A program made the translations under genes and the position numbers. Positions 47,707-63,999 of a stretch of 64,000 nucleotides of DNA are shown piece after piece. This stretch comes from a virus, in the IMG/VR virus record IMGVR_UViG_3300021376_000029, positions 1 to 64,000 of that record. One strand, given 5' to 3'. A model generated the notes under the pieces. The model worked only from the letters and a program-made list of their open reading frames with translations, was not told the origin of the DNA and searched no databases. Position 1 is the stretch's first letter, and the number at the start of each line of letters is the position of its first letter.

Positions 47707-50700
47707 GAGTGTGCAATTACGCGAAGATCTTCAAGACGAGGAGCAAGTGCTGGATTTGATCCGACAAATACAATTTTGATTGCAAAAGAACCGAATGGAC
47801 TTAAGTTATTTGCAGTATACTTATATTCAATGTAAGAATCTAAATCTTCAGAACTTGATGAGAAAGCTCTTAGATTAGATGGAGTAATTGACGCAGTATT
47901 ATCGGAATAACCAGTTTGATTAAAATATGTCCAATTTATCTTATTGAAATCTTCAGAACTTCCATCAGGTCTTAATTTATACATAACCTTGATATCTCTG
48001 TTGTTAAAAAGATTTGCAGTTATCTTACAATCAAGAGATGTAGCTGGAGCATCAAGGGTGATCTCTTTAGTCACATACTTAGAAACTGATGAACTTCCAT
48101 AAGAGTTTGTCTCAGGAACAAATAAGAATCCTCCAGTATCAGAAACACTAGAAACTGTTCTACCAGTAACTGGAACTGTTCCTGCGTCTGTATCATTAAC
48201 AATATCACCAGATACAAATGGATTTGGTGATGTTAATTTAATTTTCAGTGAACCAGTTCCAGAATCCCAACCAATAATTTGACCACTCTTAAGAGTTACT
48301 GTAGTAGAATTAGCAACAACAGATCCTTGAGTTACAGGATTATTTCCTACAAAATCACCAACAATATCAATCACTTTGATCTTGCGATTAATAGAGTCTA
48401 CACTTACAATTTGTCCAGATGCACCACTGACTGCTTGTGTTAGTCTCGTATTACTATCAACAGTATTAGTAAATGATCCTCCACTAATATTGCTATAATC
48501 AATAATAACACTCCTAACAAATTTTGCAATATTTGTGATAGTATATGCAGAACTAGTTGGTACTATTAAAGTTTGTGATTTAGTACCAAAACGATCTTCA
48601 CTACCTGTGGGGGCATCAATTCTAGATCCAATAGTGATTACATTCGCTCTATTTACATCTAAAACAGGAGATACATTATCTTTTGTTGTTTCCAGGGAAA
48701 CAAAATACGATAATGATGATTTTCTATTCAATAAATTTGGATTAGCACGATAAACTTCATTTACTCTTGAAGCAATTACTCTACTGTCTTCAAAATAATA
48801 ATTATCATTTGAAGTAACAGTAACAGGTAATGCTAAAGTATATTCGTTCGTTGTTCTAGAATCAACTGATTTACCATATGCAGTTTCAATTGTAGTTGAG
48901 ACATTTGAAGATGGGAATGATACTATAGAAATTTGTGATTGCAGAATTTCATATACTTTATTAGTTGTTGCAAAAACATTATTTCCACCACCACCACCAG
49001 CACCAGTCATGGCTGGATTAGCAGTATTCCAAAGAGTAGAATCAATTTGAATGCAATATGTATCATAACCAACATTACTTACTGAATGTAATCCATTAAT
49101 TAAGGATACTGGAATTCCAAAAATATTTTCTGGAGTTCCAATACCAGAAACATTAGATAATACTACAACGTCACCTTCTTTCATTCCATGATTTGGTTGT
49201 GTTACTCTAATTACTTTTTGATTTGCACCAAACAGTGAAGAAGTGCCAAGAGTATTATCTACTTGTATTGGGTTAATAGGAAGTTTTACAGATCCTATTA
49301 CATCATTTGTTAATTGAATTGTAGATGTAGTAGAAGTATTAAATACACATCTATTGATATTAAACTTGAGATCTTCAATTTCATCTTCAACCCAAGCAGA
49401 TGAATTTTGAGACTTGAATAAAGACCCAACGTTTGGTTGGTTAGATGATACAATAATACTATTAAGAAGTGGACTTCCTACTCGTGAACTATAAAGTTTA
49501 TAGTCAGAACTTGGCGTAGAAACAACGAAAGCATAAGTTGCATTGTTTTCAAGATAAACTGGTGATTTAAACTTGAAGGTAGTTTTTACACTAGCATCTG
49601 TTGAAGTAGCAACACCCATTTTCACAGCTGGGTTAGTGATTCTTAAAATAGATTCAGCAGTTGCAAGACCATCACCACCAATAATTGTTACAGTAGGTGG
49701 TGTATAATATCCAGAACCAGAGTTTGTAATATTAATTTCATAAATTTTTCCACCATAAATTTTTGGTGATGCTGTAGCAACAGACCCAAATGTTCCGCCA
49801 TTATCACCATTAATTGTTACTGTAGTCGCGCCTGATACTGTAGAATAACTAGAACCAAAAGTATTAACTTTAATAGATTCAATAATTCCAGAATCTTGAT
49901 CTATAAAGAAAGAAGTAGATGTTATAGCAGGTGATCTGTTGACAACAAATTCTTCACCAGCAATGAAAGAAACACCATTATGATTTGAAAGTATTAGATT
50001 ATATCTAGTATTTGCTGAAGAAACAATAGACTGTTTCTTAATAACACCAGTAGCACCAGAAGTTTTTCCAGTTATAGTTTCACCAACAAAGAGAGTTATT
50101 CCTTGTGGAATAGTCGTTGAAATCTTTATTCTAAGGATAGTATCAGAATTCAATGAAACTTCACTAAATGGTAAAATATTTCTAGTAGGAATTCCTCCAT
50201 TGGTTTCTACTAAGTAGAGAGATACAGGACGTTCAGTGTCTGCGTTAGTTGGATTTAATTTATTTTGGAAATAAAGATTAACACTAGAAAGGAAGACTCC
50301 TTCATCAAAACCTGTTACGGCAAAAGTTTGTGCCAGAGGATCTAGAAGACCAGATTGGTTAATATTTACTTGAGAACTTCCGATAAGTTGGACTGTATCT
50401 GAATTTAGTACAGATCTTCTGCTGATAGATGTAAATCTACTAGAACCTAAAGAAGTTTCTACCAAACCAGCAGCACGATATTCTGTTTCTGCAAATGTAG
50501 AAACTTTAGTATTATCGTTAGAGTTTATTGAACTTGACGTTAATCTGAAAGACTTACTACCACAAACAAATCTTCTTTGATTTCCAGATGTCTGGAAGAA
50601 TGTTTCAACTGAGGAGTTTAAATCAAATGTCTTTTTGCCTAAAACAGGTGCATATCCAGTAGGAATTAAAAACTGTCCGCTTATATTACCATTTATATCA

Positions 50701-53700
50701 GTAATAATAGAAGTTCCAAAACCTTTTTCTGCATATCCAGCAATTCCAGTGAATGGAGTAGTTATATTAGTAACATCATCTGGGTTTATCCACGACGAAA
50801 CATCAATGCCGTCAAAGAATGCATATAATCTAGTTTCTGGTTCTAATCCTCTAGCAACAAACTTAACTACATTTCGGCGCATATATGGATTATATGCTGT
50901 AGATAAAACTCTGTCGTTTGCAGATACAGTCGCTGCCCCATATGGGGTCAATCTATTCTGAGTTCCATTTCTAGTTCTAGTCCTTGTTTTTCCTTTGAGA
51001 ACTGAGGTAGAATTATTACTGATAGAATTGAATTGAGAACCTGAGGTTGAATTGCTCAAAGAATAATTAGCAGATCCAGTCCAAGCAAACTGCCATTCAT
51101 TCCAAATAGTTCCCCATGAACCAGGAATATTATTTTGAATGGTATCAAAAATTGAATTTTCATTTACAATCAATTCTGGTGCAATGGTAGTATCTTTCCA
51201 TTCATCAATATTTGGTTCTAATGTTACTATCCCACCAAATTTTGCTGCTCTTCCAGGATTAATTGTAATCGTGGTTGAAGCATGTGGGTTATTAATAGTA
51301 GACTGTTCTGTGAATGGAAGAGTAATTAATTCACCAGTTTTCTTATATCCACTTGCAGATCTTTGTAAATCATTAGTATTTTTTTCAATTAATTTTGTTT
51401 GAGATGCATAGTAACTTGGTCTTGCAACTCCTGTTTGCATATCAATAGAACATGAGTAATCAATTGAATTAGTATTGCCAATATTATGACCTTCAAAATT
51501 ATCTACTAAAATACCATTCTTAAATCTTTCATTTCCAAATTCATCACGAACTTGGGTGTTAAATGTATCTTGCTCAAGAAGACTTAATACAGTATAGTAT
51601 TCAAGTTTTTCAATCCTCTTTTCAAGTTTACCAATATCACGCATTGTATAGCGACGATTATCAATGCTCTTGGTTTTGATATCAAAAATATTAAAAGTAT
51701 ATGCAGGAATATTGAAATAGTATAAAAGCATTCCATCTGAAATTTCAGAAGGTACTTGAGGATTCAGTGAAGGTGTTCCTTTAGATACAGTAAATGAACC
51801 ATCTTTAGTGAGATATAAAGCATCAATTCTATTCAGATAAAATCTATATCCAGTATCATATGAAGTTCCAAATAAAGGAATTGCTGGAGAAGCAGAACCA
51901 ACACCATTGAACTTGAGGGCATCAGTAGTTTTCTTATCACTATATCCTGGAAGAACAGTTTCAGTATCAAGTCCAGTGTAGTCTGAAACTCTAGGTCTGA
52001 AATCAACTACATCTCTCAGAGAAATTTCTCCATATACAGATGAAGTAAATGAAGGTATATTTTTATAATTAATGTTCGTATAAGAATCTACAGTAAAGTA
52101 ATCACCAGTATTTGTATTACCAATATGTCTAAAGTAATCATACACTACTAAAAGTTTATTGGTAGGAATTTGAGCATCTGGTTTTCTAATAATTCTTGCT
52201 AAATCATAATGAGTATCTCTTTGACCACCATCAAAAATAAATCTATCAGTTACATTAGTATCATTTTTAGTGGCATCAGCTCCACTGGAAGACATGTATA
52301 TTGCTTGTAATGTATAACCATCTGCATATTGTAGAGGAATAACTGGATCAGAAAATCCTGTCGCTACTTGATATTCTTGTGAATATACTAATACTTTAGT
52401 TTTTGGTATAGTATCACTTTTGTTAACAGGAGCAATTAACTTAAATGGTGCCGAAGCAAATGATCCAGTTAATGTAATAGTAAGAGATTTATTGCTATTT
52501 GAATACGAAACTACGCCAGATCCTGATATATCAATTAAGTTACCATTAGATGGATTGCTAAGAATATAATTATCAGATGAATAATTTAAGAAACTTTCAT
52601 TAGTACCTACAGTTACAGTAAATGCTCCTGATGCATCAAAATTACCAATGAATTCTTTCTGAACAGTATAATTGATATTTGTATTATTAGGATTAAGAAT
52701 TGTAGTTTGTACATTCTTATTTGGTAAAGGAAGTAATAAGGAATTGCCTGTCAGACCATTCAGTTTTGTTCTGACTCTTGAAATAACTTTACCTGTAAAT
52801 GAACTTAAGATTAGACCATAAACATAAATTCTGCTGGTAAAACCTGAACCCTCTCTTACAGCAAATCTTACTAAGTATTTTCTAGTAATACCAGCGTTAT
52901 CTGTAACTTCAATAATATCACCTTTACTTAAGTCTAGATCAGGACGTGAGGCTAAATTATCAGCACTAATATAGTATGATCCTTCTACTGCATTAAATGT
53001 TGCGCCGTTAGCAACATTGAATATATCCTGTTTAGATGTAATATCACCAGCAAATGGATTCCCCGTAGTAGAACCATAAAAACTTTTAATATATGAAGCA
53101 TCATAAGAAATAACGTTATTTTTATTCAGAATAGCTTCAAATGCACACCCATTTCCTCCATAATTACTAGTAACAGTCACTACAGGAGATGAATTATAAT
53201 TACCTAAAGATAAACGAGCTGCGTTAGTTATTCTAATAGATCTTAATTCACCGTTCGTTATAGTAATATTAGATGCTTGAATAATAGAAGTTACATCAGT
53301 ACCACCAATTGATATAGTTAGACTACTAGCAGTAGTATAACCACTTCCAAATGATTTTGGTTTTAAATATGCAATAGTGCTATCTTCTTCAATAATATTG
53401 TATGGAGTAGAAGTGCCATCCAGTTCAGACAATATAGTTTCATTATCCTGAAAAATTCCATTAACACGAGATAATACTACTTCATTTGTATCTGATAAAA
53501 TTTGTTCAACAATACCCTCTGCTCCACTAGATTGTCCTGTAACGAATTTTCCTACGCTAAAGTTTACAGGATTTTTGCATAATACTTTAGTATAATACTC
53601 AGTACCAAAAAGACCTAATTTATATAATGATGATGTTTTATCGTAAATATTAGCATTTGAATTGCCAGTTAAAAATTTCAGATATTTTGTTTTTGAAATA

Positions 53701-55277
53701 CCAATATATGATGTGGTAATTCTATCTGCATCCATCAGTGTTCCACTAACAGAACCCATAGTTATCGTTTGACCAATTATAAAATCAACACTGGATGGTT
53801 TTGTTACCAAAACAACTGCTTTAGTTTGTGAAGCATTTTGTTGATAAACTCTGACTTCACCGCTAATAGATCCAATAGAATATGGCGTATTTACTGCAAC
53901 CTGACCAGATGAAGAAATGTTAGATACTGTTAAAATCCAGAATTTTTCACTTTCTGGTGAATCTGCGTTTAAGTTTGCTGTTGTATCACCATATAATACA
54001 TCACTATGAGTATCATAAAGTTTAATTTCTTGATATGGATTAGTACTTAATAATCCAGAACCAGTTAAGTTTTGAGTTTTACCTTCAATATCAGGAAAAG
54101 AATATAGATTTTTTACTGTATAATTAGAACCTTCTAAAGGTGATATGAAAATATTTTCTTGAGTTTCTGTATCTCTTGCCTTGTCAACTACAATATATTT
54201 TGTAGAGGTTGTTTCTATTTCATATCCTCTAACATATGCTTTTCCAGGATTTAATGAAATGGCAAATTTATTTTCATCACCACCTTGTTGAGTAGTATAA
54301 AGTCCATTGTTTGATCCATTATTTAAATGTTCTTGCAGATTTATTGTAAAGTCTCTTACAATATAATCTCCAGATTCATCCTGGGTTCTTCTAGCAAGAA
54401 TGGCGAGAATATCATTAACACTAAAATTAAGATTTCCAATTGGGGTTGTAATTTGACTATTACCACCAATAATGACCATTAACTGAACAAAATCTTTTTG
54501 ATCAGGACTTGAAATATCTCTTTTTACCAATGAAACAGTGATCTTTAATCTATGTGATCCAGGAGCACTAAAATTTGAATATCCCTGAGCATTATCAAGA
54601 AGAGAAAGATCTTCTTCTGAAGTTACCAACTGTTCATTTATAACAAAACCAACTTTGTATGAAGGAGTATTGCTATATTTGTCTAATATTACTGTTTCAG
54701 TATTATTTCTTACTAATGTGCCGTTTATGAAATAAACTCCTTCTTTTACAGTTACCGCAGATCCAAATCCCATGGCTGGACTTGATGTTGGTTTTACATT
54801 ACCAGTAATACCAACAATTGCTGTCGGTGATCCAGGAGAATTTGCAATAATCGTTTCGCCTTCTGCAAATGTTTTTTGAACATTTGAAGTTCCGCTGTTT
54901 TCATATTTGACAAATAATGTTGCTGAATCTGTATCAGTAAAAGCAGTAGCATCTATGACTGTTGCAACAATTCCAGTAGTTGCACCAGTCATTTTTTTAC
55001 CAATGTAATCAGTAATTTGTAAATTATTGGTAAAAGAACTTACTTTAACATAAGAATATTGACTATCAAAAATAATTTCCCCAGGTACTACTACAGAACC
55101 TTGCTTAAACTTTGATTTAGCAAGAGTTTCTATTTGAGTTTGTAATATTGATTGTAATGTAGTTAATTCTCTTGATTGGATTGAATATCCAGGTCTAAAC
55201 AGAACCCTATAAAAATTTTTTAAGGGATCAAAATCATCAAAATATGGAGCTTTATTAAGATTCGTACTCTGGGGCAT
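47703..55277 (-). CDS. Large baseplate-associated structural protein (VrlC/DUF4815-like)
   Basis: MPQxTNLNxAPYFDDF, VLFRPG, QSRELT, DFRPRV, RYTMRDIGKLEKRI, FKNGILVDNF, DPLAQTF. Confidence 0.9.
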   Translation of the reverse strand: MPQSTNLNKAPYFDDFDPLKNFYRVLFRPGYSIQSRELTTLQSILQTQIETLAKSKFKQGSVVVPGEIIFDSQYSYVKVSSFTNNLQITDYIGKKMTGATTGIVATVIDATAFTDTDSATLFVKYENSGTSNVQKTFAEGETIIANSPGSPTAIVGITGNVKPTSSPAMGFGSAVTVKEGVYFINGTLVRNNTETVILDKYSNTPSYKVGFVINEQLVTSEEDLSLLDNAQGYSNFSAPGSHRLKITVSLVKRDISSPDQKDFVQLMVIIGGNSQITTPIGNLNFSVNDILAILARRTQDESGDYIVRDFTINLQEHLNNGSNNGLYTTQQGGDENKFAISLNPGKAYVRGYEIETTSTKYIVVDKARDTETQENIFISPLEGSNYTVKNLYSFPDIEGKTQNLTGSGLLSTNPYQEIKLYDTHSDVLYGDTTANLNADSPESEKFWILTVSNISSSGQVAVNTPYSIGSISGEVRVYQQNASQTKAVVLVTKPSSVDFIIGQTITMGSVSGTLMDADRITTSYIGISKTKYLKFLTGNSNANIYDKTSSLYKLGLFGTEYYTKVLCKNPVNFSVGKFVTGQSSGAEGIVEQILSDTNEVVLSRVNGIFQDNETILSELDGTSTPYNIIEEDSTIAYLKPKSFGSGYTTASSLTISIGGTDVTSIIQASNITITNGELRSIRITNAARLSLGNYNSSPVVTVTSNYGGNGCAFEAILNKNNVISYDASYIKSFYGSTTGNPFAGDITSKQDIFNVANGATFNAVEGSYYISADNLASRPDLDLSKGDIIEVTDNAGITRKYLVRFAVREGSGFTSRIYVYGLILSSFTGKVISRVRTKLNGLTGNSLLLPLPNKNVQTTILNPNNTNINYTVQKEFIGNFDASGAFTVTVGTNESFLNYSSDNYILSNPSNGNLIDISGSGVVSYSNSNKSLTITLTGSFASAPFKLIAPVNKSDTIPKTKVLVYSQEYQVATGFSDPVIPLQYADGYTLQAIYMSSSGADATKNDTNVTDRFIFDGGQRDTHYDLARIIRKPDAQIPTNKLLVVYDYFRHIGNTNTGDYFTVDSYTNINYKNIPSFTSSVYGEISLRDVVDFRPRVSDYTGLDTETVLPGYSDKKTTDALKFNGVGSASPAIPLFGTSYDTGYRFYLNRIDALYLTKDGSFTVSKGTPSLNPQVPSEISDGMLLYYFNIPAYTFNIFDIKTKSIDNRRYTMRDIGKLEKRIEKLEYYTVLSLLEQDTFNTQVRDEFGNERFKNGILVDNFEGHNIGNTNSIDYSCSIDMQTGVARPSYYASQTKLIEKNTNDLQRSASGYKKTGELITLPFTEQSTINNPHASTTITINPGRAAKFGGIVTLEPNIDEWKDTTIAPELIVNENSIFDTIQNNIPGSWGTIWNEWQFAWTGSANYSLSNSTSGSQFNSISNNSTSVLKGKTRTRTRNGTQNRLTPYGAATVSANDRVLSTAYNPYMRRNVVKFVARGLEPETRLYAFFDGIDVSSWINPDDVTNITTPFTGIAGYAEKGFGTSIITDINGNISGQFLIPTGYAPVLGKKTFDLNSSVETFFQTSGNQRRFVCGSKSFRLTSSSINSNDNTKVSTFAETEYRAAGLVETSLGSSRFTSISRRSVLNSDTVQLIGSSQVNINQSGLLDPLAQTFAVTGFDEGVFLSSVNLYFQNKLNPTNADTERPVSLYLVETNGGIPTRNILPFSEVSLNSDTILRIKISTTIPQGITLFVGETITGKTSGATGVIKKQSIVSSANTRYNLILSNHNGVSFIAGEEFVVNRSPAITSTSFFIDQDSGIIESIKVNTFGSSYSTVSGATTVTINGDNGGTFGSVATASPKIYGGKIYEINITNSGSGYYTPPTVTIIGGDGLATAESILRITNPAVKMGVATSTDASVKTTFKFKSPVYLENNATYAFVVSTPSSDYKLYSSRVGSPLLNSIIVSSNQPNVGSLFKSQNSSAWVEDEIEDLKFNINRCVFNTSTTSTIQLTNDVIGSVKLPINPIQVDNTLGTSSLFGANQKVIRVTQPNHGMKEGDVVVLSNVSGIGTPENIFGIPVSLINGLHSVSNVGYDTYCIQIDSTLWNTANPAMTGAGGGGGNNVFATTNKVYEILQSQISIVSFPSSNVSTTIETAYGKSVDSRTTNEYTLALPVTVTSNDNYYFEDSRVIASRVNEVYRANPNLLNRKSSLSYFVSLETTKDNVSPVLDVNRANVITIGSRIDAPTGSEDRFGTKSQTLIVPTSSAYTITNIAKFVRSVIIDYSNISGGSFTNTVDSNTRLTQAVSGASGQIVSVDSINRKIKVIDIVGDFVGNNPVTQGSVVANSTTVTLKSGQIIGWDSGTGSLKIKLTSPNPFVSGDIVNDTDAGTVPVTGRTVSSVSDTGGFLFVPETNSYGSSSVSKYVTKEITLDAPATSLDCKITANLFNNRDIKVMYKLRPDGSSEDFNKINWTYFNQTGYSDNTASITPSNLRAFSSSSEDLDSYIEYKYTANNLSPFGSFAIKIVFVGSNPALAPRLEDLRVIAHS

Positions 55278-55315: not shown

Positions 55316-56878
55316 TTAGAATTCTACAACTAGTTTAACATCTTCAATTTGATCAACTGCTCTTGAGACAGTTCTTCTATTTTCAACATAAAGAATATCA
55401 CCTGTATATTTTTCAATTTCTGGTCTTGAATAACCAGTAGTAAAAGTCAAATTAGATACAGTTAAACTATAGGTAATATCTGGAGTTTCTGATGCTGTTG
55501 ATGTAGCTCCAGTGATTGCATTTGCGCCAGAAAACTGAGGAAGAGAACCTCCCTGGGCTCCAGTTTGAATATGCTCATAGCTACTTTGATATACTTTTAA
55601 AATCTTAGTAGTAGGATCCCATGAAACTACTCTTCCTTTTGCATTAGTATTTGCTTGAGTAACGACTTCATCAAGGCTAAAAGATGCAGTAGTTGAACTT
55701 GGGAATTTGATTGAGGTAAGAGCACTATAAGTAGATGATGTAGCACTTACACCTGATGATTCTTTAGGATCTCTCACAATACCAATTCTTCTAAAATCAG
55801 TGTCAATTGGGAATTCAAAGTTTTCATCATACTGAACTCTGGAGTTAATCATAACTCTCTTAGTCCCAAGTTCTTTGTATATATTAAATCCATGGCCGCC
55901 AGGAGGTGGAATAATTACTTCAAGAACTGCACCAGATCCAGCTCCAATGCCAGAAATTTCGGTGGAGTTGACATTTACAGAGCCGAAAGTATACCCAGAT
56001 CCGTTAGTCGTCACTGTAACACTAGTAACTGCACCACTAACAATAACAATAGTACACAATGCTTGAACACCACCAGTTATAGAAGTATAGTCTCCGCGAA
56101 TAGGAACGTTAGTATATGTGCCGTCAGTATATCCACTACCAGCATTTTTAATAATTACTGTATCAATAGAACCATTGATTGCTGCTGTTTTTACGTCTGT
56201 ACCATTCGCAGGATCGCCTGCAGCACCTGTTCCCCAAGTTGCTGGTACGGGAATATAGGATGTAGTGAAAAACTTGATAACATCGTCTGTACCGATGCTG
56301 TACATAAACTTCCACCTATAACCATCTGCAGTATTAAAAGTAGAAGTTCCTGTTCCAGTTGGTGCTACCGAAGAAGCAATACCATTTGGGTTTGCAACCG
56401 TAGAACCATTATAAATGCACTTGTAAACTTTATAGTTATGTACTACATAAAATTTTGCATTATATAAATTTGTAGCATTTTGCCCTGATGAAACTGCTCT
56501 ATAATCAACACTATAATTAGGACGGTACATATCATAAATTTGTCCCGAAGTCCAATTATAACGAGGAATTACAAGTCTCACATCAGAGGATTGAATTCTC
56601 TTAAGAGAAATCATATCATCAAAGGTTTCTCTTTCATAATCAAAATTATCAATAGGTGTTGGGGGATTATTTTCGTTTGGAGTAGCAAGATATGAAGCAC
56701 TATGTTGACTGCCCGCAGGTTGTCCTACATATGCTGTTGCGCCAGGCGCCGCCGCAGTATCCCAATTTTGGGGTCTGCCCATGAAAAAGTACATATTTGT
56801 AGCAGCAGTTTCACTAAAAGCTTCTTCAAACTGCTGTGCATTATGAATTCTAAACTGTTCAGAAATAAGTGCTGGCAT
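55316..56878 (-). CDS. gp8: Baseplate wedge subunit
   Basis: FRIHNAQQF, RYNWTSG, VYKCIYN, DGYRWKFMY, PPPGGHG, GDILYVENR, EDVKLVVEF. Confidence 0.93.
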   Translation of the reverse strand: MPALISEQFRIHNAQQFEEAFSETAATNMYFFMGRPQNWDTAAAPGATAYVGQPAGSQHSASYLATPNENNPPTPIDNFDYERETFDDMISLKRIQSSDVRLVIPRYNWTSGQIYDMYRPNYSVDYRAVSSGQNATNLYNAKFYVVHNYKVYKCIYNGSTVANPNGIASSVAPTGTGTSTFNTADGYRWKFMYSIGTDDVIKFFTTSYIPVPATWGTGAAGDPANGTDVKTAAINGSIDTVIIKNAGSGYTDGTYTNVPIRGDYTSITGGVQALCTIVIVSGAVTSVTVTTNGSGYTFGSVNVNSTEISGIGAGSGAVLEVIIPPPGGHGFNIYKELGTKRVMINSRVQYDENFEFPIDTDFRRIGIVRDPKESSGVSATSSTYSALTSIKFPSSTTASFSLDEVVTQANTNAKGRVVSWDPTTKILKVYQSSYEHIQTGAQGGSLPQFSGANAITGATSTASETPDITYSLTVSNLTFTTGYSRPEIEKYTGDILYVENRRTVSRAVDQIEDVKLVVEF

Positions 56879-56919: not shown

Positions 56920-59900
56920 TCATCCTCGCCAAGCAAGTCTCATATAATCACCTTGATTATGAGATGTTGAAGATGTATTGAGTACACCACGCTGGCAATT
57001 CAATAATTGACCGCTAAAGATAGATGAATAGAAAATGGTTTCATCACCAAATTCAATATATCCTGAAGGAGGCAAATTATAAGTATTTCCACTAATTAAA
57101 ATAGTTTGATCAAGATCAGTAATTCCAGAGGCAAGAGTTAATCCAAAACTGATATAAGAATCTTCACCGTAATTAATAATTATATTATCGCTAGCGCCAG
57201 TAGTACTCCCAGGTCTATTTACAAAATCAGCAATAGTTAAATTAGGTGCATAACGAGAAACATTTTCAATATTTACATTTGTTCCCAAATAAGAAGATAA
57301 AGGATCATTAATATTCAATGGTTCATACTTAAATTTATTTTCTTCAAATGTATTCAAGACATAGGCTAATGCTGGTCGTGAAACATCACGATTTGTTCTA
57401 TTTTCTGTTTCAATAGTTGTAACTTTTGTGCTACTGATACTTGTTTGTATCACAGGAATTTCATATTTTTCTTCGCTTCCAATTGCAGTGCTTCCAGTTA
57501 ATCCAGCAGAAGTAAGTAATGCAATACCATCATTTGCTTTCATATCTATTATTATATCTTTAAAGTCATAAACTGGTTTCTTTCTGATTAATTCATATCG
57601 TTTAGCAAAAATAATTTCTGGTGCTGTTGTATAACCAGATCCAGGATTTGTAATAGTTACCGATACCACACGACCATTTTCAATTGTAGAATACGCTTCT
57701 GCACCTGTTCCTGGATTACCACATGCTGGTTTGAATAAAACTATAGGTGCTGTTTCATATTCCATACCACCATTATTGACATCAATTCTTGTAATTAGGT
57801 TATTATAAACTGATGGAATAGAAACAGTTCCTGAAATTGAAGTAGTTCCGCTTACTGAAACTGGATTAGCACCAGATACAGCGACTCCAGAAACTACTGC
57901 AGTTGCAACAGCATTTTTACCCTTAATATATGAGTTATCGGTATAAACAAAAGCAGTATAAAGTAAATCATCTCCTTGTTCCAAAACATTTTGTTCTATA
58001 GAAATAAGTTCTTTAGGTGTTTCGCCTTGGATTTTAATTAAATCTCCTGGTTTGAGATATTCATAAGTCTGATTAACTTTTTTCAAATATCTACATCCAT
58101 CTATAGTATTTTCACCAATATAATGGATATCCTCAAAAACTTTACCATTCCATATAGAGATAGTTTTATCAAATGTTTTTCCGTAGAAATATAATAAATT
58201 ACACTTTTTACCCTTGGTAGGAGCTTCCTTGAATGTCAGAATATTATCTGATATAGTATAAGTGTCATTTTCATTTTGAGGAACACCATCAAGAAGTATT
58301 AATAATTGATGAACATCAGGAAGTTTTATAATATCATCCTGATATTTCAGTTCAAAAACAGTTTGCCTGTCATTAAATTGATCTGAAATATTATTAAGCA
58401 TTTTGTACTTACTAAAAGAGTATCCAAAGAAATTACGACTTGCATCAAAAGATTCATAAAAAACTATTTTATTTGGATAAACCGATCTATTAATAATATA
58501 ACTTTCTCCATAAATTTGCAGAACGCCATCAACAAATATCAAGAGATTTTCATCTTGCTCTGTAACAAGATTTGCTCCATCTAGTTTATAAAGATTAAAT
58601 TCTTTGGTGACTCCATCAAATAAAATATTCTTCAATTTATAAGAATACCTAATGTCATCAGAAGAATTAGTCAACTTATATAATACCGAATAGAAAGTAG
58701 AACCTTCTTTTGGTGGTTCATACATTCTAAGAGTATTATTTGTAGTATTGAACTCAAATTGTCCTTTAATTACTTTAGCATTTGTTAATCTTGAACTCAA
58801 TATAGTATCAGAAGTTCCTAAGAAATCAGGTAAAATATTAAAATCCTTAACATACAATTGATTTGCTAATGCAAGTTTCATCATATTTTTTGCCTTATTA
58901 AAGGCAACAATAGATTCTGATACTTCACCCTGAACACCATTTGAAATTAATGTGTTTCCAGATGTAGTTAAATATGAATTTGTAGCATCAAGTATATTAG
59001 AATTACCGCCATAGAAAAGATCTAAAACAACAGCATCAACAATAATTCCAATATCTCTTTTACACTTTGTTTCTCCTGATGCTGTGGTTCCAGAAGATAC
59101 CGCTGGAATAGGAGTTGGATATGTTAAAGATCCTTGATTTAAATGGAATGTTACGATTCCAGAAAGAATATCAATATTATTTCTGACATTAGTACATGAT
59201 GTTGGATTAGTATTTGAAGAAACACCAGATGCAGGTAATGGATCTGCAGTAATTGTAAGATCTTTAGTAAACAACTGGTTGGTGATTGCCAGTTTCATTA
59301 CATCACGAGCTTTGTTGAATGCTGTGATAGATTCAGCTATTTCTCCTTGAAGTCCGTTAGAAGTTAATGAAGTTCCAGTAGCATTAAAATATTGTTTTAA
59401 AAATTCAATAACATATCTATTGCTTCCTACATGTACATCTAAAGAAACTGCATCAATAAAAATACCGATATCTCTCTTGCATTTTGCCTCTCCAGCAGGA
59501 ACAGTAGTTGATACTGATTCAGCAGGAAGACCAGTTACGTTACCAGCAGTAATATGAGAAGTAATAATTAATGTTAGGTTTGTAATAGCAGTTTGAATAT
59601 CTGAGCAAGCAGTTGGACTAGTATTACTAACATTACCGCCAGTGCCACCATAATTAGCTGCACCACTAGTAATAGTGAGATCTTTGATTGTCAGTTGGTT
59701 AGCAACTGCCTTTTTCATTTCATCTCTTGCCTTATTAAAAGCAAGAACTGATTGTGCTTCTTCTCCCACAAGACCATTTGTAATAGGACTGCCATTATTA
59801 AAATATGAAAGAACAAATTGACGACTGTATACATTTCCGCCAGCTTGAGCAATGTCTAAAGATACAGAATCAATGAAGATACCAATATCTCTCTTACACT

Positions 59901-62900
59901 TATCTGTATTTGTTGCATTGATGACAAAAGTTGGGAATGCAGGAGCAATTGCAGCAAAAGCAGTATCAATAATTTCCTGTCTGTTTAGTTGGATTAATCG
60001 GTAACCATCCTTAAATCTAGATACAGCAGTTGTTTGTGGATCACCAGGATAGGAAAAATCTGGATGTTGAACTGCAATTTCAGCAGCAGCACGGTCAATA
60101 ATTTCTCGTCTATTTTGCTGGATTAATCTATAAGAATCTTTGAACCTACTTTTATCAGTAGTTTGAGGATCATTAGGATAATAAAAATCAGGGAATAAAA
60201 CAGAAATTTCTGCATTTGCACGATCTACAATTTCTTGTTTATTTGCAGAAATCAAAGCACTAGCATCACGATGTCTATTAGCACTAACTATTGTAGATAC
60301 ACCAGAAGTTGTCCAGATACCAGTATTTCTAATTGGTAAAGTGATTCCAGATGGATTTGCTAATTTTGTAGTTAAAATGCCGACTAAATTATCAACCGTA
60401 TTCTGAACATCAGCACACACACCAGGATCATTATTAGTCAAATATCCATTAGGATTATTGAATAATACCGTAAATGTATTTGAAGAGTTTACAGAATAAA
60501 TTTCAAACTTATCATTGAAGTTTATATTGCCAGATGGTGTTACACCTGAGATATGAACATATAAATCTGTTGGATAAGTTACACCTGAATAAGTATATGC
60601 ATATCCATGATCTCCTACTGTAGTTATAGTAGCAAGATTGTTTACATATGATATATCTGAAATATTTCTCAATTCATATGGTTCTTGGAAAATCTCATTT
60701 ATTGCTAATAATATAGAAGTATTTTTTATATTTTCTGGGAATGTTCCGTCTTGAGTAGTTAATGGGTAATTAGTTTTAACATTATCAAAAGTATTTGAAA
60801 TATCAGTCAGTTTAACTGCTTCTACTTGATTATCTAAGAAATTCAAAAGACTAGCTCCCAGACCTTCTATTTTCTGGGTCAATGCAGTATTTACAATTTG
60901 AACTTCATATTTTCTATAACTTAACTGAGATTCTACAGTTATGCCACTTACTGGTATAACAATTACTGAATTTGCACTATAATCTCTCGGCAGAGTAACA
61001 CTTCCAGAACCAGTGAGACCAGAATTGGTAATGCTAGAAAAATTTTCAACAGATACTTCACCAAAAAGTTTGAATCCAAGAGGATGAAGACTCTTATCAA
61101 CAATTGACTTATAATCTCTTAATGACTTTGTACTTCTTATTACATAGGAAAAATCCTGATAATATCTACTGTCAATTATTTTTTGTGATGATGCATTCAG
61201 TTTTCCAAGATCACTGTCAAAAAATCCTACTCTACTTAAATAACCAGAAATATTTCCAAAAATATCAGCAAGTTTAACTTCATGAATTTTTGATGTAGTT
61301 TGTCTGATGGATCCCGTTAAAATAGTATCAGCAAGTAGGACTCCAGTTAATAACTTAACATCAAGTAAATATGAGTTATTTCCTATTTTTTGTGTTGCAT
61401 CTACTCGCACAACAGCACCATTTGATGCAGTCAAAAATTCAGAATTGCTGTAAATTTGATTAGATAAATTTGTTATAATTAATTTATAATTAAGTATTAA
61501 TTGCTTCTGTAATGTTCTATCAGAACTATACTGTGTTCCATAGTTGGCAAATCTTGTAGTCTTTACTTTTGCTATTGTATTGCTAATTGGAAAGATTTCT
61601 GGATTTGTATCAACAGCAAGGATATAATCATTATTAGTATAATTTCTACCACCATTGGTAACTTCTACAGAAACTATTCTACCATTAACTATTGTTGGTT
61701 TTATTATAGCGCCAGAACCCGTAGAACTGATAACTTTTAATATAGTATTAGAAGAATATCTTCTTCCTTGATTTAATACTGAAATATTGTTGGTTAAAGA
61801 ACCAGAAGAAAGAGAATATGTAAATTTAGCGTTATCAAGATCAGAATGAATTATACCTTCAACTAAAGGAAGTTTTTTATATCCTTCGCCACCATCAATA
61901 TTTTTTATTTTTGAAATTTTACCTATAGATGATATTGATGTAGTAGTGTAAGAAACATTGCTATAAGATAAACTTTCAAGTTGCGATGAAATACTAAATT
62001 TAAACTTAGTAGGAGATATAACATCAATTACATGAGAACTAATAAAATAATTATCTCTAATATTAAAGTATGTTTTATTGTTTTCAATTCTATTAGTTTT
62101 ATCAAAATAATAAACTCTTGAAATAGAATTTATATTAAAGATTGAATAATTTATAGTAATTGTAGATCCAGAAACTCCTGGTGTACCTGATCTAACAATA
62201 TTAGGTATAGCACTAATATTGCTTGAATCTTCGCTAAAAGACATAACATTACCAAAATTACTTCCATCACTTATATCAAATACATAAGTGCTACCTCTAA
62301 TCATGTCTAGAGACAAATCTCTGACATAATAATTTCCTGTATTTGTTGGATCTATTTCCCAATAAATTTTTTTGGGAGTAACTGATGATATTGTTATCTG
62401 TCTTGCACTAGGAGTAGATGAATCTGATACTACACTAGTATTAATGATAGTACCTGATAAGATTTTAACTTCTATTTTAGAATTAAGCTTATCAATACTA
62501 TAAATTGTTCCAGAAATTCCAGATGAAATTAAAGAATTTCCAATTTGAATGTTATAATCATTTTGAAAATCGGGAATGTATAATTTTACACTATTTGTTG
62601 CAGCATGTAATCTCAAAGGAGAATTTAATTGTGCTCTACTAACTGTAAACTGATTATTAGTATAATTGATACTAATAATTCTCATAATTTCATCATTAAT
62701 TAAAATATAATCATTATTTCTATATTGAGAGGCATTAATAACGTTAATTGTAGACTGATTCAAAGATACATCAACATCAAGAGTTGTTGTAATGTTAGGT
62801 TTTGTATAATGTATTGTTTGATATGTACCTACTCTTACTTTAAATGTTTTGGTTGTTTGTAAAACATTATTATCAATATTTAAAATTACAGAATCTCTGT

Positions 62901-63999
62901 TTGATAATAGATGTGGTTGAGTAGTAGTAACAATGGCTTCATAAGGAATAGAATATTGAGGAGCACTAATTTTAGTTGGGTATGGAAATTGAGAAATGCC
63001 ATTTGTAATAGTAACACCAGAGGCAGTATATCCAGAAAGAACTGCATAAGTAACAGAACTCACAGTAACACCAAATATAGATTCAATACTAGCTAAAGAA
63101 CCAGAACCTTCAGTATTATCGCTGTTAATAAAAAGAAAATCATTAACTTTATAATCAGAACTTGAATTTGAACAAATATATGAATCTACAGATCCTCTTT
63201 CAACGCTATTAATTAAAATTCGTGCATCAAATCCCTTATTTGGTGTATTTAAAGTTCTTATTCTTTTTGCGTCTTGTGGTAAATTAGATTCAATTTGATT
63301 GTGTGATATAGTATTGTTTAATTTTGATGGTACTGAATTATAATTTTTTCCTATAATATAAGGGAATATTCCTTCACCAAAAGGATCAACTGATATAAAA
63401 TATGCATAAGTTCCATTCGGAAACTCAGGAGTCTTGCAAAAACGACCATTATTTTCATCTAAATCTCCAAGAGCAGAAACAAAATCATAGTCTTCAATAA
63501 ATGCTCCAAATGGATACTCAGAAACACTAGGACGATTTGATGTAGTAGTATTCAACGAATAACTACTCACCATTCTTCTTATAGTAGAAACACTGGCAGG
63601 GTTAGTATAACCATATGGACCATAAATTGGATTTCCATCATACGCCCATCCTAAAATAGGAGAATGACTAAAATTAGAATCTATTTCAGCATAATCAAAA
63701 GAAGGACCCTTAACATTATCATTTAATTCACTTCTAAGTAATTTTGGGTTAAGTGCATATGCATATTGCAATCCATAACGAACATCTGCACTATTATACA
63801 AGTAACCATTACCACCATCAACCCTTTTATTTTGAGATAACTGCCATTGTCCAGAAGTATTTCTGACATATTTTAATTTAAATACTCTATCATAATTCCA
63901 TCTTCTTACTTTTGCTGTTGCCTGTACTCCAGTACCATTTGATATTAAAGAAATTCTAATATTACTTCTATTTGAATAGTCAATTCCACCAGATATCAC
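56920..63999 (-). CDS. gp7: Baseplate wedge initiator (giant, 5' end outside the window)
   Basis: HSPILGWAYDGNPIYGPYG, IIDSRYYQDFSYVI...HPLGFKLFGE; directly upstream of gp8; ORF open to the window edge. Confidence 0.85.
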   Translation of the reverse strand: MISGGIDYSNRSNIRISLISNGTGVQATAKVRRWNYDRVFKLKYVRNTSGQWQLSQNKRVDGGNGYLYNSADVRYGLQYAYALNPKLLRSELNDNVKGPSFDYAEIDSNFSHSPILGWAYDGNPIYGPYGYTNPASVSTIRRMVSSYSLNTTTSNRPSVSEYPFGAFIEDYDFVSALGDLDENNGRFCKTPEFPNGTYAYFISVDPFGEGIFPYIIGKNYNSVPSKLNNTISHNQIESNLPQDAKRIRTLNTPNKGFDARILINSVERGSVDSYICSNSSSDYKVNDFLFINSDNTEGSGSLASIESIFGVTVSSVTYAVLSGYTASGVTITNGISQFPYPTKISAPQYSIPYEAIVTTTQPHLLSNRDSVILNIDNNVLQTTKTFKVRVGTYQTIHYTKPNITTTLDVDVSLNQSTINVINASQYRNNDYILINDEIMRIISINYTNNQFTVSRAQLNSPLRLHAATNSVKLYIPDFQNDYNIQIGNSLISSGISGTIYSIDKLNSKIEVKILSGTIINTSVVSDSSTPSARQITISSVTPKKIYWEIDPTNTGNYYVRDLSLDMIRGSTYVFDISDGSNFGNVMSFSEDSSNISAIPNIVRSGTPGVSGSTITINYSIFNINSISRVYYFDKTNRIENNKTYFNIRDNYFISSHVIDVISPTKFKFSISSQLESLSYSNVSYTTTSISSIGKISKIKNIDGGEGYKKLPLVEGIIHSDLDNAKFTYSLSSGSLTNNISVLNQGRRYSSNTILKVISSTGSGAIIKPTIVNGRIVSVEVTNGGRNYTNNDYILAVDTNPEIFPISNTIAKVKTTRFANYGTQYSSDRTLQKQLILNYKLIITNLSNQIYSNSEFLTASNGAVVRVDATQKIGNNSYLLDVKLLTGVLLADTILTGSIRQTTSKIHEVKLADIFGNISGYLSRVGFFDSDLGKLNASSQKIIDSRYYQDFSYVIRSTKSLRDYKSIVDKSLHPLGFKLFGEVSVENFSSITNSGLTGSGSVTLPRDYSANSVIVIPVSGITVESQLSYRKYEVQIVNTALTQKIEGLGASLLNFLDNQVEAVKLTDISNTFDNVKTNYPLTTQDGTFPENIKNTSILLAINEIFQEPYELRNISDISYVNNLATITTVGDHGYAYTYSGVTYPTDLYVHISGVTPSGNINFNDKFEIYSVNSSNTFTVLFNNPNGYLTNNDPGVCADVQNTVDNLVGILTTKLANPSGITLPIRNTGIWTTSGVSTIVSANRHRDASALISANKQEIVDRANAEISVLFPDFYYPNDPQTTDKSRFKDSYRLIQQNRREIIDRAAAEIAVQHPDFSYPGDPQTTAVSRFKDGYRLIQLNRQEIIDTAFAAIAPAFPTFVINATNTDKCKRDIGIFIDSVSLDIAQAGGNVYSRQFVLSYFNNGSPITNGLVGEEAQSVLAFNKARDEMKKAVANQLTIKDLTITSGAANYGGTGGNVSNTSPTACSDIQTAITNLTLIITSHITAGNVTGLPAESVSTTVPAGEAKCKRDIGIFIDAVSLDVHVGSNRYVIEFLKQYFNATGTSLTSNGLQGEIAESITAFNKARDVMKLAITNQLFTKDLTITADPLPASGVSSNTNPTSCTNVRNNIDILSGIVTFHLNQGSLTYPTPIPAVSSGTTASGETKCKRDIGIIVDAVVLDLFYGGNSNILDATNSYLTTSGNTLISNGVQGEVSESIVAFNKAKNMMKLALANQLYVKDFNILPDFLGTSDTILSSRLTNAKVIKGQFEFNTTNNTLRMYEPPKEGSTFYSVLYKLTNSSDDIRYSYKLKNILFDGVTKEFNLYKLDGANLVTEQDENLLIFVDGVLQIYGESYIINRSVYPNKIVFYESFDASRNFFGYSFSKYKMLNNISDQFNDRQTVFELKYQDDIIKLPDVHQLLILLDGVPQNENDTYTISDNILTFKEAPTKGKKCNLLYFYGKTFDKTISIWNGKVFEDIHYIGENTIDGCRYLKKVNQTYEYLKPGDLIKIQGETPKELISIEQNVLEQGDDLLYTAFVYTDNSYIKGKNAVATAVVSGVAVSGANPVSVSGTTSISGTVSIPSVYNNLITRIDVNNGGMEYETAPIVLFKPACGNPGTGAEAYSTIENGRVVSVTITNPGSGYTTAPEIIFAKRYELIRKKPVYDFKDIIIDMKANDGIALLTSAGLTGSTAIGSEEKYEIPVIQTSISSTKVTTIETENRTNRDVSRPALAYVLNTFEENKFKYEPLNINDPLSSYLGTNVNIENVSRYAPNLTIADFVNRPGSTTGASDNIIINYGEDSYISFGLTLASGITDLDQTILISGNTYNLPPSGYIEFGDETIFYSSIFSGQLLNCQRGVLNTSSTSHNQGDYMRLAWRG
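58815..60435 (-). repeat. Three phycobiliprotein/globin-like helical repeats inside gp7
   Basis: Three 43-aa units (129 bp period) followed by three KCKRDIG units (417 bp period). Confidence 0.8.

What the first reader, a model, noticed from the sequence alone, without database searches (positions are those of the whole stretch)
58815..60435. Phycobiliprotein-like domains with both bilin-type cysteines inside the baseplate protein gp7: a possible chromophore-carrying virion
Seen: a helical insert in otherwise beta-rich gp7 has three copies of KCKRDIG..(I/V)D.V.LD...G(G/S)N, with Cys codons at 59896-59898, 59479-59481 and 59062-59064. It also has three R..D...LI..N..EI.D.A...I....P segments and three C..(V/I)...(V/I)..L helices (Cys at 60415-60417, 59605-59607, 59194-59196). 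Known, recalled from memory: phycocyanin alpha reads DKCARDIG...AGG at the bilin-binding Cys84/Arg86/Asp87 site (phage: DKCKRDIG). Allophycocyanin alpha has RLRIAQTLTENRERIVKQA...P in helices A-B (phage: RHRDASALISANKQEIVDRA...P). Beta subunits carry a second bilin Cys (153/155) at the start of the last helix, which T-type lyases serve. Many cyanophages encode ho1, pebS/pcyA and a CpeT-like lyase of unclear purpose, and light-dependent adsorption has been reported for some. Inference: the baseplate may carry up to six bilin sites, acting as a light sensor, photoprotectant or host mimic, and could be the real substrate of phage bilin enzymes. No bilin genes lie in this window.
Basis: partly seen in the sequence, partly recalled or inferred. 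Interest (0 to 1): 0.92.

Follow-up and report, generated by a model that had tools for sequence, protein, structure and literature searches.

The report
Phycobiliprotein-like domains in cyanophage baseplate
The giant baseplate protein of this virus of marine cyanobacteria contains domains that are true relatives of its host's light-harvesting pigment proteins and keep the pigment-attachment residues almost without exception, so it can now be tested whether the virus particle carries pigment and uses light to decide when to attach; pigment binding itself has not been shown.

Summary
The segment is truly related to phycobiliproteins. It passes Pfam PF00502 (37.4 bits, cut-off 22.2). Profiles of the phage units hit only phycobiliproteins in the PDB (best E 2.6e-6). 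An AlphaFold model of one unit (pLDDT 88, pTM 0.87) matches only phycobiliproteins (Foldseek TM 0.62-0.68; VIA Z 15.7).

The real domain runs A/B helices, then the KCxRD helix, then the following Cys helix as the last helix. The element order c-aaa-K-c-K-c-K suggests three domains nested in one another; this is inferred, not folded.

Among 2,410 domain copies the Cys84/Arg86/Asp87 equivalents are kept in 98.6/95.6/99.5%. The second Cys is kept in 76%, so a disulfide is not obligatory.

The domain is present in 15 of 19 T4-like cyanophages tested (own record included). It is absent from their Pelagibacter and Ochrobactrum phage relatives. The phage lyase gene cpeT never occurs without it, but the four domain-free cyanophages form one clade. 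Bilin reductases do not track it.

Published light-dependent adsorbers (P-HM1, P-HM2, S-PM2) carry it; dark adsorbers (P-SSM2, P-SSP7) lack it.

Bilin binding is untested. This scan has already noted the same thing in at least 31 other genomes.

The parts
56920..63999 (-). gp7-position giant baseplate protein (2,359 codons in the window; the open frame is 3,034 codons in the whole record and the 5' end lies beyond the window)
   Evidence: ORF list and translation. Pfam YHYH PF14240 near the window-side N-terminus. PHROG baseplate wedge and tail fibre families. It lies directly upstream of the gp8-like gene, as gp7 does in annotated relatives.
60358..60426 (-). c1: Cys-helix (Cys codon 60415-60417). 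Proposed last helix, moved to the front, of the outermost nested domain.
   Evidence: Sub-HMM hit E 3.6e-5; Cys position. The pairing with a1 and K3 is inferred from element order only.
60190..60288 (-). a1: A/B-helix-like segment (RHRDASALISANKQEIVDRA...P)
   Evidence: Sub-HMM E 1.4e-4. PF00502 profile positions 27-69 match at 60157-60285.
60061..60162 (-). a2: A/B-helix-like segment
   Evidence: Sub-HMM E 2.2e-14. PF00502 positions 33-69 match at 60028-60138.
59932..60033 (-). a3: A/B-helix-like segment of the innermost, contiguous domain
   Evidence: Sub-HMM E 2e-18. Helices 8-21 and 23-32 of the AlphaFold model.
59686..59916 (-). K1: helix E with KCKRDIG (Cys codon 59896-59898), then F' and G-like helices and the KDLTIT strand
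   Evidence: Sub-HMM E 2.3e-36. PF00502 positions 36-94 match at 59842-60000. Model helices 45-67, 73-80 and 97-115.
59536..59616 (-). c2: Cys-helix (Cys codon 59605-59607), the last (H-like) helix of the domain a3-K1-c2
   Evidence: Sub-HMM E 6e-12. Model helix 149-168 at pLDDT about 95, packed into the domain. The whole model aligns to phycoerythrin beta residues 25-184.
59527..60048 (-). Complete contiguous phycobiliprotein-like domain (a3-K1-c2, 174 aa) that was modelled
   Evidence: AlphaFold2 pLDDT 88.1, pTM 0.87. The Foldseek top 50 are all phycobiliproteins, TM 0.62-0.68. VIA-align Z 15.7, 14.1 and 13.8 to phycoerythrin beta, ApcE and allophycocyanin.
59245..59499 (-). K2: second KCKRDIG unit (Cys codon 59479-59481)
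   Evidence: Sub-HMM E 2.4e-34; alignment A1.
59125..59205 (-). c3: Cys-helix (Cys codon 59194-59196), proposed last helix of the K2 domain
   Evidence: Sub-HMM E 4.3e-7.
58849..59082 (-). K3: third KCKRDIG unit (Cys codon 59062-59064), with no Cys-helix after it
   Evidence: Sub-HMM E 2.2e-28. PDB phmmer aligns seg 435-482 to phycocyanin alpha residues 61-108.
55316..56878 (-). gp8-like baseplate wedge gene, immediately downstream; fixes the gp7 identity by synteny
   Evidence: tblastn finds 473 phage records annotated as gp8 or baseplate wedge. The order gp7-gp8-giant structural protein recurs in relatives.

Best explanation
Shown: the gp7-position baseplate protein of this T4-like cyanophage carries phycobiliprotein-derived globin-fold domains. 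One domain is contiguous (a3-K1-c2, window 59527-60048). It lacks the X-Y arm that light-harvesting subunits use to pair. It keeps the chromophore triad Lys-Cys-x-Arg-Asp on helix E and has a second Cys at the start of the last helix.

Inferred from element order (c aaa K c K c K): the other two KCxRD units are completed by the upstream A/B segments. That would give three domains nested in each other's B-E loop, with the outermost one circularly permuted.

Proposed mechanism (inferred, untested): during assembly in the infected cell, a host- or phage-made bilin is attached by a thioether bond to the Cys84-type cysteines. Attachment could be autocatalytic, as in ApcE, or use host lyases. The phage CpeT-type lyase may serve the second cysteine. 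The pigmented baseplate would then act as a light-responsive module that gates baseplate or fibre deployment. This would give the light-dependent adsorption known for P-HM1, P-HM2 and S-PM2.
For: Homology:
- PF00502 scores 37.4 bits against a cut-off of 22.2.
- Phage-unit profiles hit only phycobiliproteins in the PDB: 43 of 43 and 70 of 70 hits, best E 2.6e-6. The alignment covers helix B, the loop and helix E of phycocyanin alpha residues 39-103, with the same Cys-to-GG spacing.

Fold:
- The model has pLDDT 88 and pTM 0.87.
- The Foldseek top 50 are all phycobiliproteins.
- VIA Z is 15.7 to 13.0 for eight phycobiliprotein entries, against 11 or less for other globin-like proteins.

Site conservation in 2,410 copies:
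- Cys 98.6%, Arg 95.6%, Asp 99.5%.
- 24% of copies keep this Cys without the second one, so it is not held by a disulfide partner.
- The six motif cysteines are the only Cys in the 540 aa.

Host link:
- All 263 and 115 tblastn-positive phage records are cyanophages.
- HMM searches are negative in Pelagibacter phage Mosig and an Ochrobactrum phage, which share the gp7-gp8 module.

Lyase:
- A cpeT-like gene lies in the same record.
- Among 18 cyanophages, cpeT occurs in 11 of 14 with the domain and 0 of 4 without it.

Phenotype:
- Liu et al. 2019 (PMC6628666) report no dark adsorption for P-HM1 and P-HM2, and cite Jia 2010 for S-PM2. These carry 5, 5 and 13 domains.
- P-SSM2 and P-SSP7 adsorb in the dark and carry none.
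Against: - No bilin attachment, pigment or light response of the protein has been shown anywhere.
- The model coordinates could not be read, so neither a pocket nor the Cys-Cys distance was measured.
- Only helices A/B to E match PBPs by sequence. The G-to-H half does not.
- The X-Y arm is missing.
- The B-E loop, which covers the chromophore in PBPs, is 6 to 9 residues shorter in the HMM alignments. In the nested model it would also host whole inserted domains.
- The 85-kb record holds no bilin reductase or heme oxygenase.
- Reductases do not track the domain.
- Three domain-bearing phages lack a detectable cpeT (ACG-2014f, S-BM3, P-SSM7).
- From my own knowledge, T-type lyases serve the beta-153/165 site, not Cys84.
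- The cpeT and phenotype correlations rest on one or two evolutionary events. All four domain-free cyanophages sit in one gp8 clade with 100/100 support.
- P-SSM2 also adsorbs better in light although it lacks the domain.
- The nesting was not folded.
Confidence: 0.45

Rival explanations
1. Apo scaffold. A phycobiliprotein gene fragment captured from the host was reused as a compact helical building block (spacer, rod or receptor-contact module) of giant baseplate and fibre proteins. It carries no bilin. The Cys/Arg/Asp, Asp+14 and Tyr+30 residues are kept for folding, for packing of the nested domains against each other, or for contacts between subunits.
For: - The domain is multiplied up to 34 times in proteins of up to 7,903 aa, like a structural repeat.
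- Two further invariant residues, Asp at +14 and Tyr at +30 from the Cys, have no counterpart that I know of in PBPs. This points to a family-specific structural network.
- The X-Y arm is lost and the B-E loop is remodelled.
- Most carriers encode no bilin-synthesis gene.
- I know of no report of coloured cyanophage preparations, and four literature searches found none.
Against: - A purely structural role does not predict that exactly the three chromophore-binding residues stay at 96-99.5% while the overall identity of units to the window's unit falls to 21-30%.
- Nor does it predict restriction to phages of bilin-making hosts.
- Nor does it predict the shared distribution with cpeT.
Confidence: 0.4
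2. Redox or metal site. The two cysteines of each unit form a disulfide, or bind a metal, after release into oxic sea water. This would stabilise the extracellular baseplate.
For: - There are exactly two conserved Cys per unit and no other Cys in the 540 aa.
- The virion works outside the cell.
Against: - In 24% of 1,150 copies that cover both positions, the first Cys is kept while the second is Ala, Thr, Gly, Ser or Val.
- 15% or more of KCxRD units have no Cys-helix before them.
- In the model the two Cys lie at the N-terminal ends of helix E and of the last helix. These correspond to the two separate bilin sites of beta subunits, but the distance could not be measured.
Confidence: 0.08
3. 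Intracellular decoy. The domains mimic apo-phycobiliproteins inside the infected cell and soak up host lyases, bilins or NblA-type factors. Their presence in the virion would be incidental.
For: - The sequence is closest to the host's phycocyanin alpha at the lyase-recognised site.
- Cyanophages are known to manipulate phycobilisomes, for example through NblA (paper listed).
Against: - The domains sit in late structural proteins annotated as virion, fibre or baseplate proteins in relatives such as Syn9 gp101.
- They are embedded in beta-rich structural sequence.
- A decoy would not need up to 34 tandem or nested copies fixed in a baseplate.
Confidence: 0.05

Closest known systems
Phycobiliprotein subunits (Pfam PF00502): closest by sequence to C-phycocyanin alpha (CpcA), closest by fold to beta subunits (CpeB, CpcB, cryptophyte beta chains)
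   Same: - Globin-type fold covering helices A, B, E, F', G and H. The model aligns to phycoerythrin beta residues 25-184 with Z 15.7.
- K-C-x-R-D-I-G on helix E, with the same spacing to the GG turn.
- A second Cys at the start of the last helix, about where beta subunits carry Cys-153/155/165.
   Different: - No X-Y arm.
- A shorter B-E loop.
- No sequence similarity in the G-H half.
- Extra invariant Asp and Tyr residues.
- Embedded, repeated and apparently nested in 2,000-8,000-aa virion proteins, rather than free 160-180-aa subunits that form discs.
- No bilin has been shown.
ApcE (core-membrane linker) bilin-binding domain, PDB 4xxi
   Same: - A phycobiliprotein domain built into a large multidomain protein.
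- A loop is inserted between helices B and E, the same site where the phage domains appear to be inserted into each other.
- Second-best structural match: Z 14.1, rmsd 2.1.
- From my own knowledge, ApcE attaches its bilin without a lyase, which shows that a lyase-free route is possible.
   Different: - ApcE belongs to the phycobilisome and has linker repeats.
- From my own knowledge, its attachment Cys is not at the position-84 equivalent.
- It has no virion context.
Photocobilin bilin-binding globin-like domains (PDB 8j2w, 8j2y) and globin-coupled sensors
   Same: Globin-like helical domains that hold a tetrapyrrole and act as sensory modules inside larger proteins (Z 11.1 and 10.7; globin sensors about 10).
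   Different: Lower structural scores than to PBPs, no sequence relation detected here, and no KCxRD motif.
T4 gp7 baseplate wedge protein
   Same: Same position next to gp8. Relatives are annotated gp7 or baseplate wedge initiator.
   Different: The cyanophage protein is about three times longer. It carries YHYH and phycobiliprotein-like inserts that non-cyanobacterial relatives lack.

Membership tests
Phycobiliprotein family (Pfam PF00502) | Sequence match to the family profile above the curated threshold | tested here: met
   37.4 bits for the 540-aa segment and 27 bits for the whole window ORF, against a cut-off of 22.2. The score is the sum of several weak stretches of 13.6, 10 and 8.9 bits. 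Most homologues carry a precomputed PF00502 hit.
Phycobiliprotein family (Pfam PF00502) | Reciprocal search: a profile of the phage units finds phycobiliproteins and nothing else among solved structures | tested here: met
   A1: 43 hits, all PBPs, best E 2.6e-6. A2: 70 hits, all PBPs or PBP-derived fluorescent proteins, best E 1.7e-5.
Phycobiliprotein family (Pfam PF00502) | Globin-type core fold (helices A, B, E, F', F/G, H) | tested here: met
   AlphaFold2 model pLDDT 88.1, pTM 0.87. Foldseek top 50 all PBPs, TM 0.62-0.68, rmsd 2.5-3 over 165-170 columns. VIA Z 15.7. This is a predicted structure, not a solved one.
Phycobiliprotein family (Pfam PF00502) | N-terminal X-Y helical arm that forms the alpha-beta monomer | tested here: not met
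   Structural alignments start at chain residues 25-48 and sequence alignments at residue 33-39 or later. Nothing in the unit precedes the A helix.
Phycobiliprotein family (Pfam PF00502) | Cys84 with Arg86 and Asp87 on helix E | tested here: met
   All three window copies read KCKRDIG. In 2,410 copies Cys is 98.6%, Arg 95.6% and Asp 99.5%. They align residue for residue with KCARDIG of phycocyanin alpha.
Phycobiliprotein family (Pfam PF00502) | Second attachment Cys of beta subunits (beta-153/155/165) in the G-H loop or at the start of helix H | tested here: inconclusive
   The Cys lies one residue before the last model helix (149-168), and counting back from the alignment ends gives about residue 165 of phycoerythrin beta. 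No residue-level alignment is available, and the C-terminal half shows no sequence match to PBPs. The Cys is kept in 76% of copies.
Phycobiliprotein family (Pfam PF00502) | Covalently bound bilin chromophore | not testable with these tools
   This needs expression with bilin synthesis genes, Zn-blot, spectroscopy and mass spectrometry.
Phycobiliprotein family (Pfam PF00502) | Assembly into (alpha-beta)3 discs and phycobilisome rods with linkers | not tested
T4-type gp7 baseplate wedge protein | Position in the baseplate gene module next to gp8 | tested here: met
   The downstream ORF 55316-56878 is gp8-like in 473 records. The order gp7-gp8-giant structural protein is seen in eight relatives.
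T4-type gp7 baseplate wedge protein | Sequence or fold homology to T4 gp7 itself | not tested
   Only PHROG 'baseplate wedge subunit' families matched. The 5' end of the gene lies outside the window.
Bilin-based photoreceptor | Light-induced change coupled to an output | not testable with these tools
   There is only an indirect link: published light-dependent adsorbers carry the domain and dark adsorbers lack it.

The most novel reading that the evidence does not exclude
The baseplate and fibres of most T4-like cyanophages carry covalently bound bilins on nested phycobiliprotein-derived domains. The phage CpeT lyase loads the second site. This virion-borne photoreceptor keeps the baseplate locked in the dark and permits adsorption in green or blue light. 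It would be the first light sensor built into a virus particle, and it would explain both light-dependent adsorption and the orphan phage cpeT gene.
Probability: 0.22. Interest if true: 0.95.

Novelty: new variant of a known kind. Interest (0 to 1): 0.8.

Why it matters
Two old puzzles of cyanophage biology become directly testable with one protein.

- Why do many marine cyanomyoviruses adsorb only in the light, independently of host photosynthesis? [quoted passage not shown]
- What is the substrate of the phage-encoded CpeT-like lyase? Its role is described as unresolved in PMC3037559.

A pigmented virion would be a new kind of sensory device. It would also matter for the daily rhythm of viral mortality of the ocean's main primary producers.

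Even if the domains carry no pigment, two things would be notable. One is the capture of a host antenna protein as a virion building block. The other is its Russian-doll nesting, an unusual example of domain evolution. The small, possibly self-loading domains could also be of use as fluorescent tags.

Tried and rejected
1. Unit defined as Cys-helix followed by KCxRD (alignment A1). The AlphaFold model was poor (pLDDT 77, pTM 0.49). Foldseek found nothing and VIA gave only Z 6.4 or less. I rejected this unit in favour of A/B + KCxRD + following Cys-helix, which folds with pTM 0.87.

Nesting therefore rests on element order only. In 169 blocks, the number of K units equals the number of a segments in 68 and differs by at most one in 115; r = 0.67.

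3. Profile of the C-terminal half (G helix to Cys-helix, A5) against the PDB. There was no phycobiliprotein hit, only one chance hit at E 0.61.

4. Search for short stand-alone relatives or host PBPs with A1 in the 5.8-billion-protein collection. It returned only fragments of phage proteins.

The context of the most divergent tandem arrays (P0123, P0126) is therefore unknown. A tblastn of one such unit found only cyanophages.

6. Co-occurrence with bilin reductase was rejected. There is no association, and two genomes have a reductase but no domain.

7. The association with cpeT gives a one-sided Fisher p of 0.011 (11/3/0/4). I do not take this at face value, because all four negative genomes fall in one gp8 clade.

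8. Four literature searches for a prior description found none. Jia et al. 2010 is not held in the library.

I dropped that step and recomputed the consensus inside the script.

10. Model coordinates are not exposed by the tools, so pocket volume and the Cys-Cys distance could not be measured.

Full report
WHAT IS THERE

The window belongs to an 85,288-base viral record, about 46% complete. It is a T4-like cyanomyovirus. The finding lies in one minus-strand frame, 56920-63999 in the window and 3,034 codons in the full record. The gene directly downstream (55316-56878) is a gp8-type baseplate wedge gene, matched in 473 phage records. In annotated relatives the order is gp7, gp8, then a giant structural protein. 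The gene is therefore the gp7-position baseplate protein. Pfam finds a YHYH domain (PF14240) and PF00502 'Phycobilisome protein' in it.

THE OBSERVATION

Three are in KCKRDIG and three start C..(V/I)...(V/I)..L helices. The three A/B-like segments are present as well. The only slip is one extra residue between LD and GGN in the first copy.

IS IT RELATED TO PHYCOBILIPROTEINS?

By sequence, yes.
- PF00502 scores 37.4 bits (E 3.1e-9) against a cut-off of 22.2. The score is a sum of weak stretches.
- I built two profiles from IMG/VR loci: 64 units in A1 and 47 units in A2.
- Against all PDB sequences these profiles hit only phycobiliproteins or fluorescent proteins derived from them: 43 of 43 and 70 of 70 hits, best E 2.6e-6 and 1.7e-5.
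- The alignment runs from helix A/B through the B-E loop to the end of helix E of C-phycocyanin alpha (residues 39-103). K-C-x-R-D-I-G lies on K83-C84-A85-R86-D87-I88-G89, with the same 18-residue spacing to the GG turn.
- The phage loop is 6 to 9 residues shorter.
- The C-terminal half of the unit has no detectable sequence similarity to PBPs.

THE FOLD AND THE TRUE DOMAIN BOUNDARIES

A unit defined as 'Cys-helix then KCxRD' folded poorly (pTM 0.49) and found nothing clear. A unit defined as 'A/B segment, KCxRD unit, following Cys-helix' (window 59527-60048) behaved very differently.
- It gave pLDDT 88.1 and pTM 0.87 in all five models.
- All of the top 50 Foldseek matches are phycobiliproteins, mostly beta subunits: TM 0.62-0.68, rmsd 2.5-3 Å, 165-170 columns, probability 1.00, E about 7e-3.
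- The Foldseek-independent aligner puts eight phycobiliprotein entries on top. Phycoerythrin beta scores Z 15.7, with model 2-167 on chain 25-184. The ApcE bilin domain scores Z 14.1 and a far-red allophycocyanin Z 13.8.
- Photocobilins (Z 11) and globin-coupled sensors (about 10) follow.

The Cys-helix is therefore the last (H-like) helix of the preceding unit. Its Cys sits at the helix start, about where beta subunits carry Cys-153/155/165. That last equivalence is extrapolated from alignment ends only. The X-Y arm of light-harvesting subunits is absent.

ARCHITECTURE

Sub-profiles for the three elements read the window protein as c aaa K c K c K. Its orthologues (L044-L047, L056) read the same way. 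Other proteins read aaaKcKcKc, aKc, or ten a's followed by seven Kc units. In 169 blocks the number of K units equals the number of a's in 68 and is within one in 115; r = 0.67.

This fits domains inserted into one another's B-E loop. In this protein the outermost one would be circularly permuted: c1-a1 ... K3. I could not fold this arrangement. A more divergent branch of the family has plain tandem units of about 108 aa, up to 34 per protein, with the same C.RD...D...GGN...Y signature.

CONSERVATION OF THE SITE

I searched the A2 HMM against some 290 distinct proteins returned by the large searches. It gave 2,410 copies that cover the motif.
- Cys 98.6%, Arg 95.6%, Asp 99.5%.
- Asp at +14: 98.5%. 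Tyr at +30: 99%. Asn of GGN: 88%.
- The second Cys is kept in 76% of the 1,150 copies that cover it. The other 24% keep the first Cys alone, so an obligatory disulfide is excluded.

Unit identities to the window's unit go down to 21-30%. That the three chromophore-contacting residues stay fixed across this divergence is the strongest argument that the site is still in use. The extra invariant Asp and Tyr have no PBP counterpart that I know of. They are compatible with a family-specific structural network, which is the main support for the apo-scaffold rival.

DISTRIBUTION AND CONTROLS

- tblastn with the segment finds 263 phage records, and with a divergent tandem unit 115. All are Synechococcus or Prochlorococcus myoviruses.
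- HMM searches of whole records find the domain in S-PM2 (13 hits), P-HM1 (5), P-HM2 (5), Syn9, P-SSM4, P-SSM7, P-RSM4, S-CAM22, ACG-2014a, ACG-2014b (3 each), S-SSM5 (2) and S-BM3 (1). S-CAM7 and ACG-2014f give three weak hits each.
- The domain is not found in P-SSM2, P-TIM68, S-SSM7, S-SM2 or the podovirus P-SSP7.
- It is also absent from Pelagibacter phage Mosig and Ochrobactrum phage vB_OspM_OC. These belong to the same virus family and share the gp7-gp8 module.

The finding passes that test.

BILIN GENES

The record has a CpeT-like gene at 84204-84653 (-), outside the window. It has no bilin reductase and no heme oxygenase in its 85 kb.

Across 18 cyanophages, cpeT is present in 11 of 14 with the domain and 0 of 4 without it. 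The one-sided Fisher p is 0.011. However, a gp8 tree places all four negatives in one clade with 100/100 support, together with the two weakest positives. The pattern therefore amounts to one or two events.

Ferredoxin-dependent bilin reductases do not follow the domain. P-SSM2 and the SAR11 phage Mosig have one without the domain, and most carriers have none. It remains open for CpeT, whose role is called unresolved in PMC3037559. In S-PM2, cpeT lies 1.45 kb upstream of a second giant PBP-domain gene.

LINK TO A PHENOTYPE

Liu et al. 2019 (PMC6628666) report the following.
- P-HM1 and P-HM2 do not adsorb in the dark.
- P-SSM2 does adsorb in the dark, though less than in light.
- The podoviruses P-SSP7 and P-GSP1 also adsorb in the dark.
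- Citing Jia et al. 2010, S-PM2 adsorption is light-dependent and independent of host photosynthesis. The suspected causes are light-sensitive host receptors or phage tail fibres.

The preprint version adds that dim red light does not affect adsorption.

My searches give 5, 5 and 13 domains for the three light-dependent phages, and none for P-SSM2 and P-SSP7. That is five of five concordant. It contains only one within-family contrast, and P-SSM2 still responds somewhat to light, so it is a lead and not proof.

VERDICT

It is shown that the baseplate protein carries true phycobiliprotein-derived domains with an almost invariant attachment triad, in cyanophages only. It is inferred that the domains are nested. 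Bilin attachment is untested; I put it at about 0.45. Control of adsorption by light is more speculative still, at about 0.2. The chief rival is an apo structural module, at 0.4.

I found no paper that describes these domains, although databases already carry the automatic PF00502 label. This scan has noted and followed up the same feature in at least 31 other genomes with the same conclusion. This report adds:
- the census of the attachment site;
- the negative controls in non-cyanobacterial relatives;
- the reductase counter-examples;
- the phylogenetic caveat on cpeT;
- the match with published adsorption phenotypes.

Noticed in passing
L115 record MT647606.1 (Pelagibacter phage Mosig), 39713-40231 (-): A myovirus of the non-photosynthetic SAR11 host encodes a ferredoxin-dependent bilin reductase (PF05996, E 1.5e-18, 230-aa frame) but no phycobiliprotein-like domain and no CpeT. 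Phage bilin synthesis therefore has a role that does not depend on the virion domains. From memory, it is probably of the PcyX type described from marine viral metagenomes.
   Followed up: partly
L130 (S-PM2 NC_006820.1 162500-177500): cpeT (163952-164479) lies 1.45 kb upstream of a second giant PBP-domain gene annotated 'short tail fiber protein' (165928-177267). The same record lists 16 tRNA features at coordinates inside that CDS, under the shared locus tag S-PM2t009. This looks like a coordinate or annotation error in the record.
   Followed up: no
P0126 (4,384 aa) and P0123 (5,984 aa), metagenomic proteins: A divergent branch of the family has plain tandem units of about 108 aa (P0126; spacing is more variable, about 136-260 aa, in P0123), up to 34 per protein.
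   Followed up: partly
window 63400-63800 (-), aa 69-205 of the window ORF: A YHYH domain (PF14240, E 7.9e-29) sits in the same baseplate protein. Precomputed Pfam annotations of this protein and its orthologues also list PF23786.
   Followed up: no
window 47703-55277 (-): A 2,524-aa ORF downstream of gp8. It corresponds in position to the 'VrlC', 'virulence-associated structural protein' or 'baseplate wedge tail fibre connector' genes of relatives.
   Followed up: no
P0171, P0252, P0081 (NCBI MAG proteins): Fragments of these phage proteins are filed in MAGs named Candidatus Nanopelagicaceae and Minisyncoccia, on contigs of 1.4-5.5 kb. This is most likely cyanophage DNA binned by mistake.
   Followed up: no
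gp8 tree: S-SSM7, S-SM2, P-TIM68, P-SSM2, S-CAM7 and ACG-2014f form one clade with 100/100 support. Four of them have no PBP-like domain and no cpeT, and the other two have only weak, partial domain matches. This may mark a lineage in which the module is being lost.
   Followed up: partly
NC_015290.1 (P-SSM7): My PF06206 search found no CpeT at E <= 1e-3 (two candidates were scored). Table 3 of PMC3037559 lists a CpeT-like protein in 12 of 16 genomes, possibly including this one. A divergent copy may have been missed.
   Followed up: no
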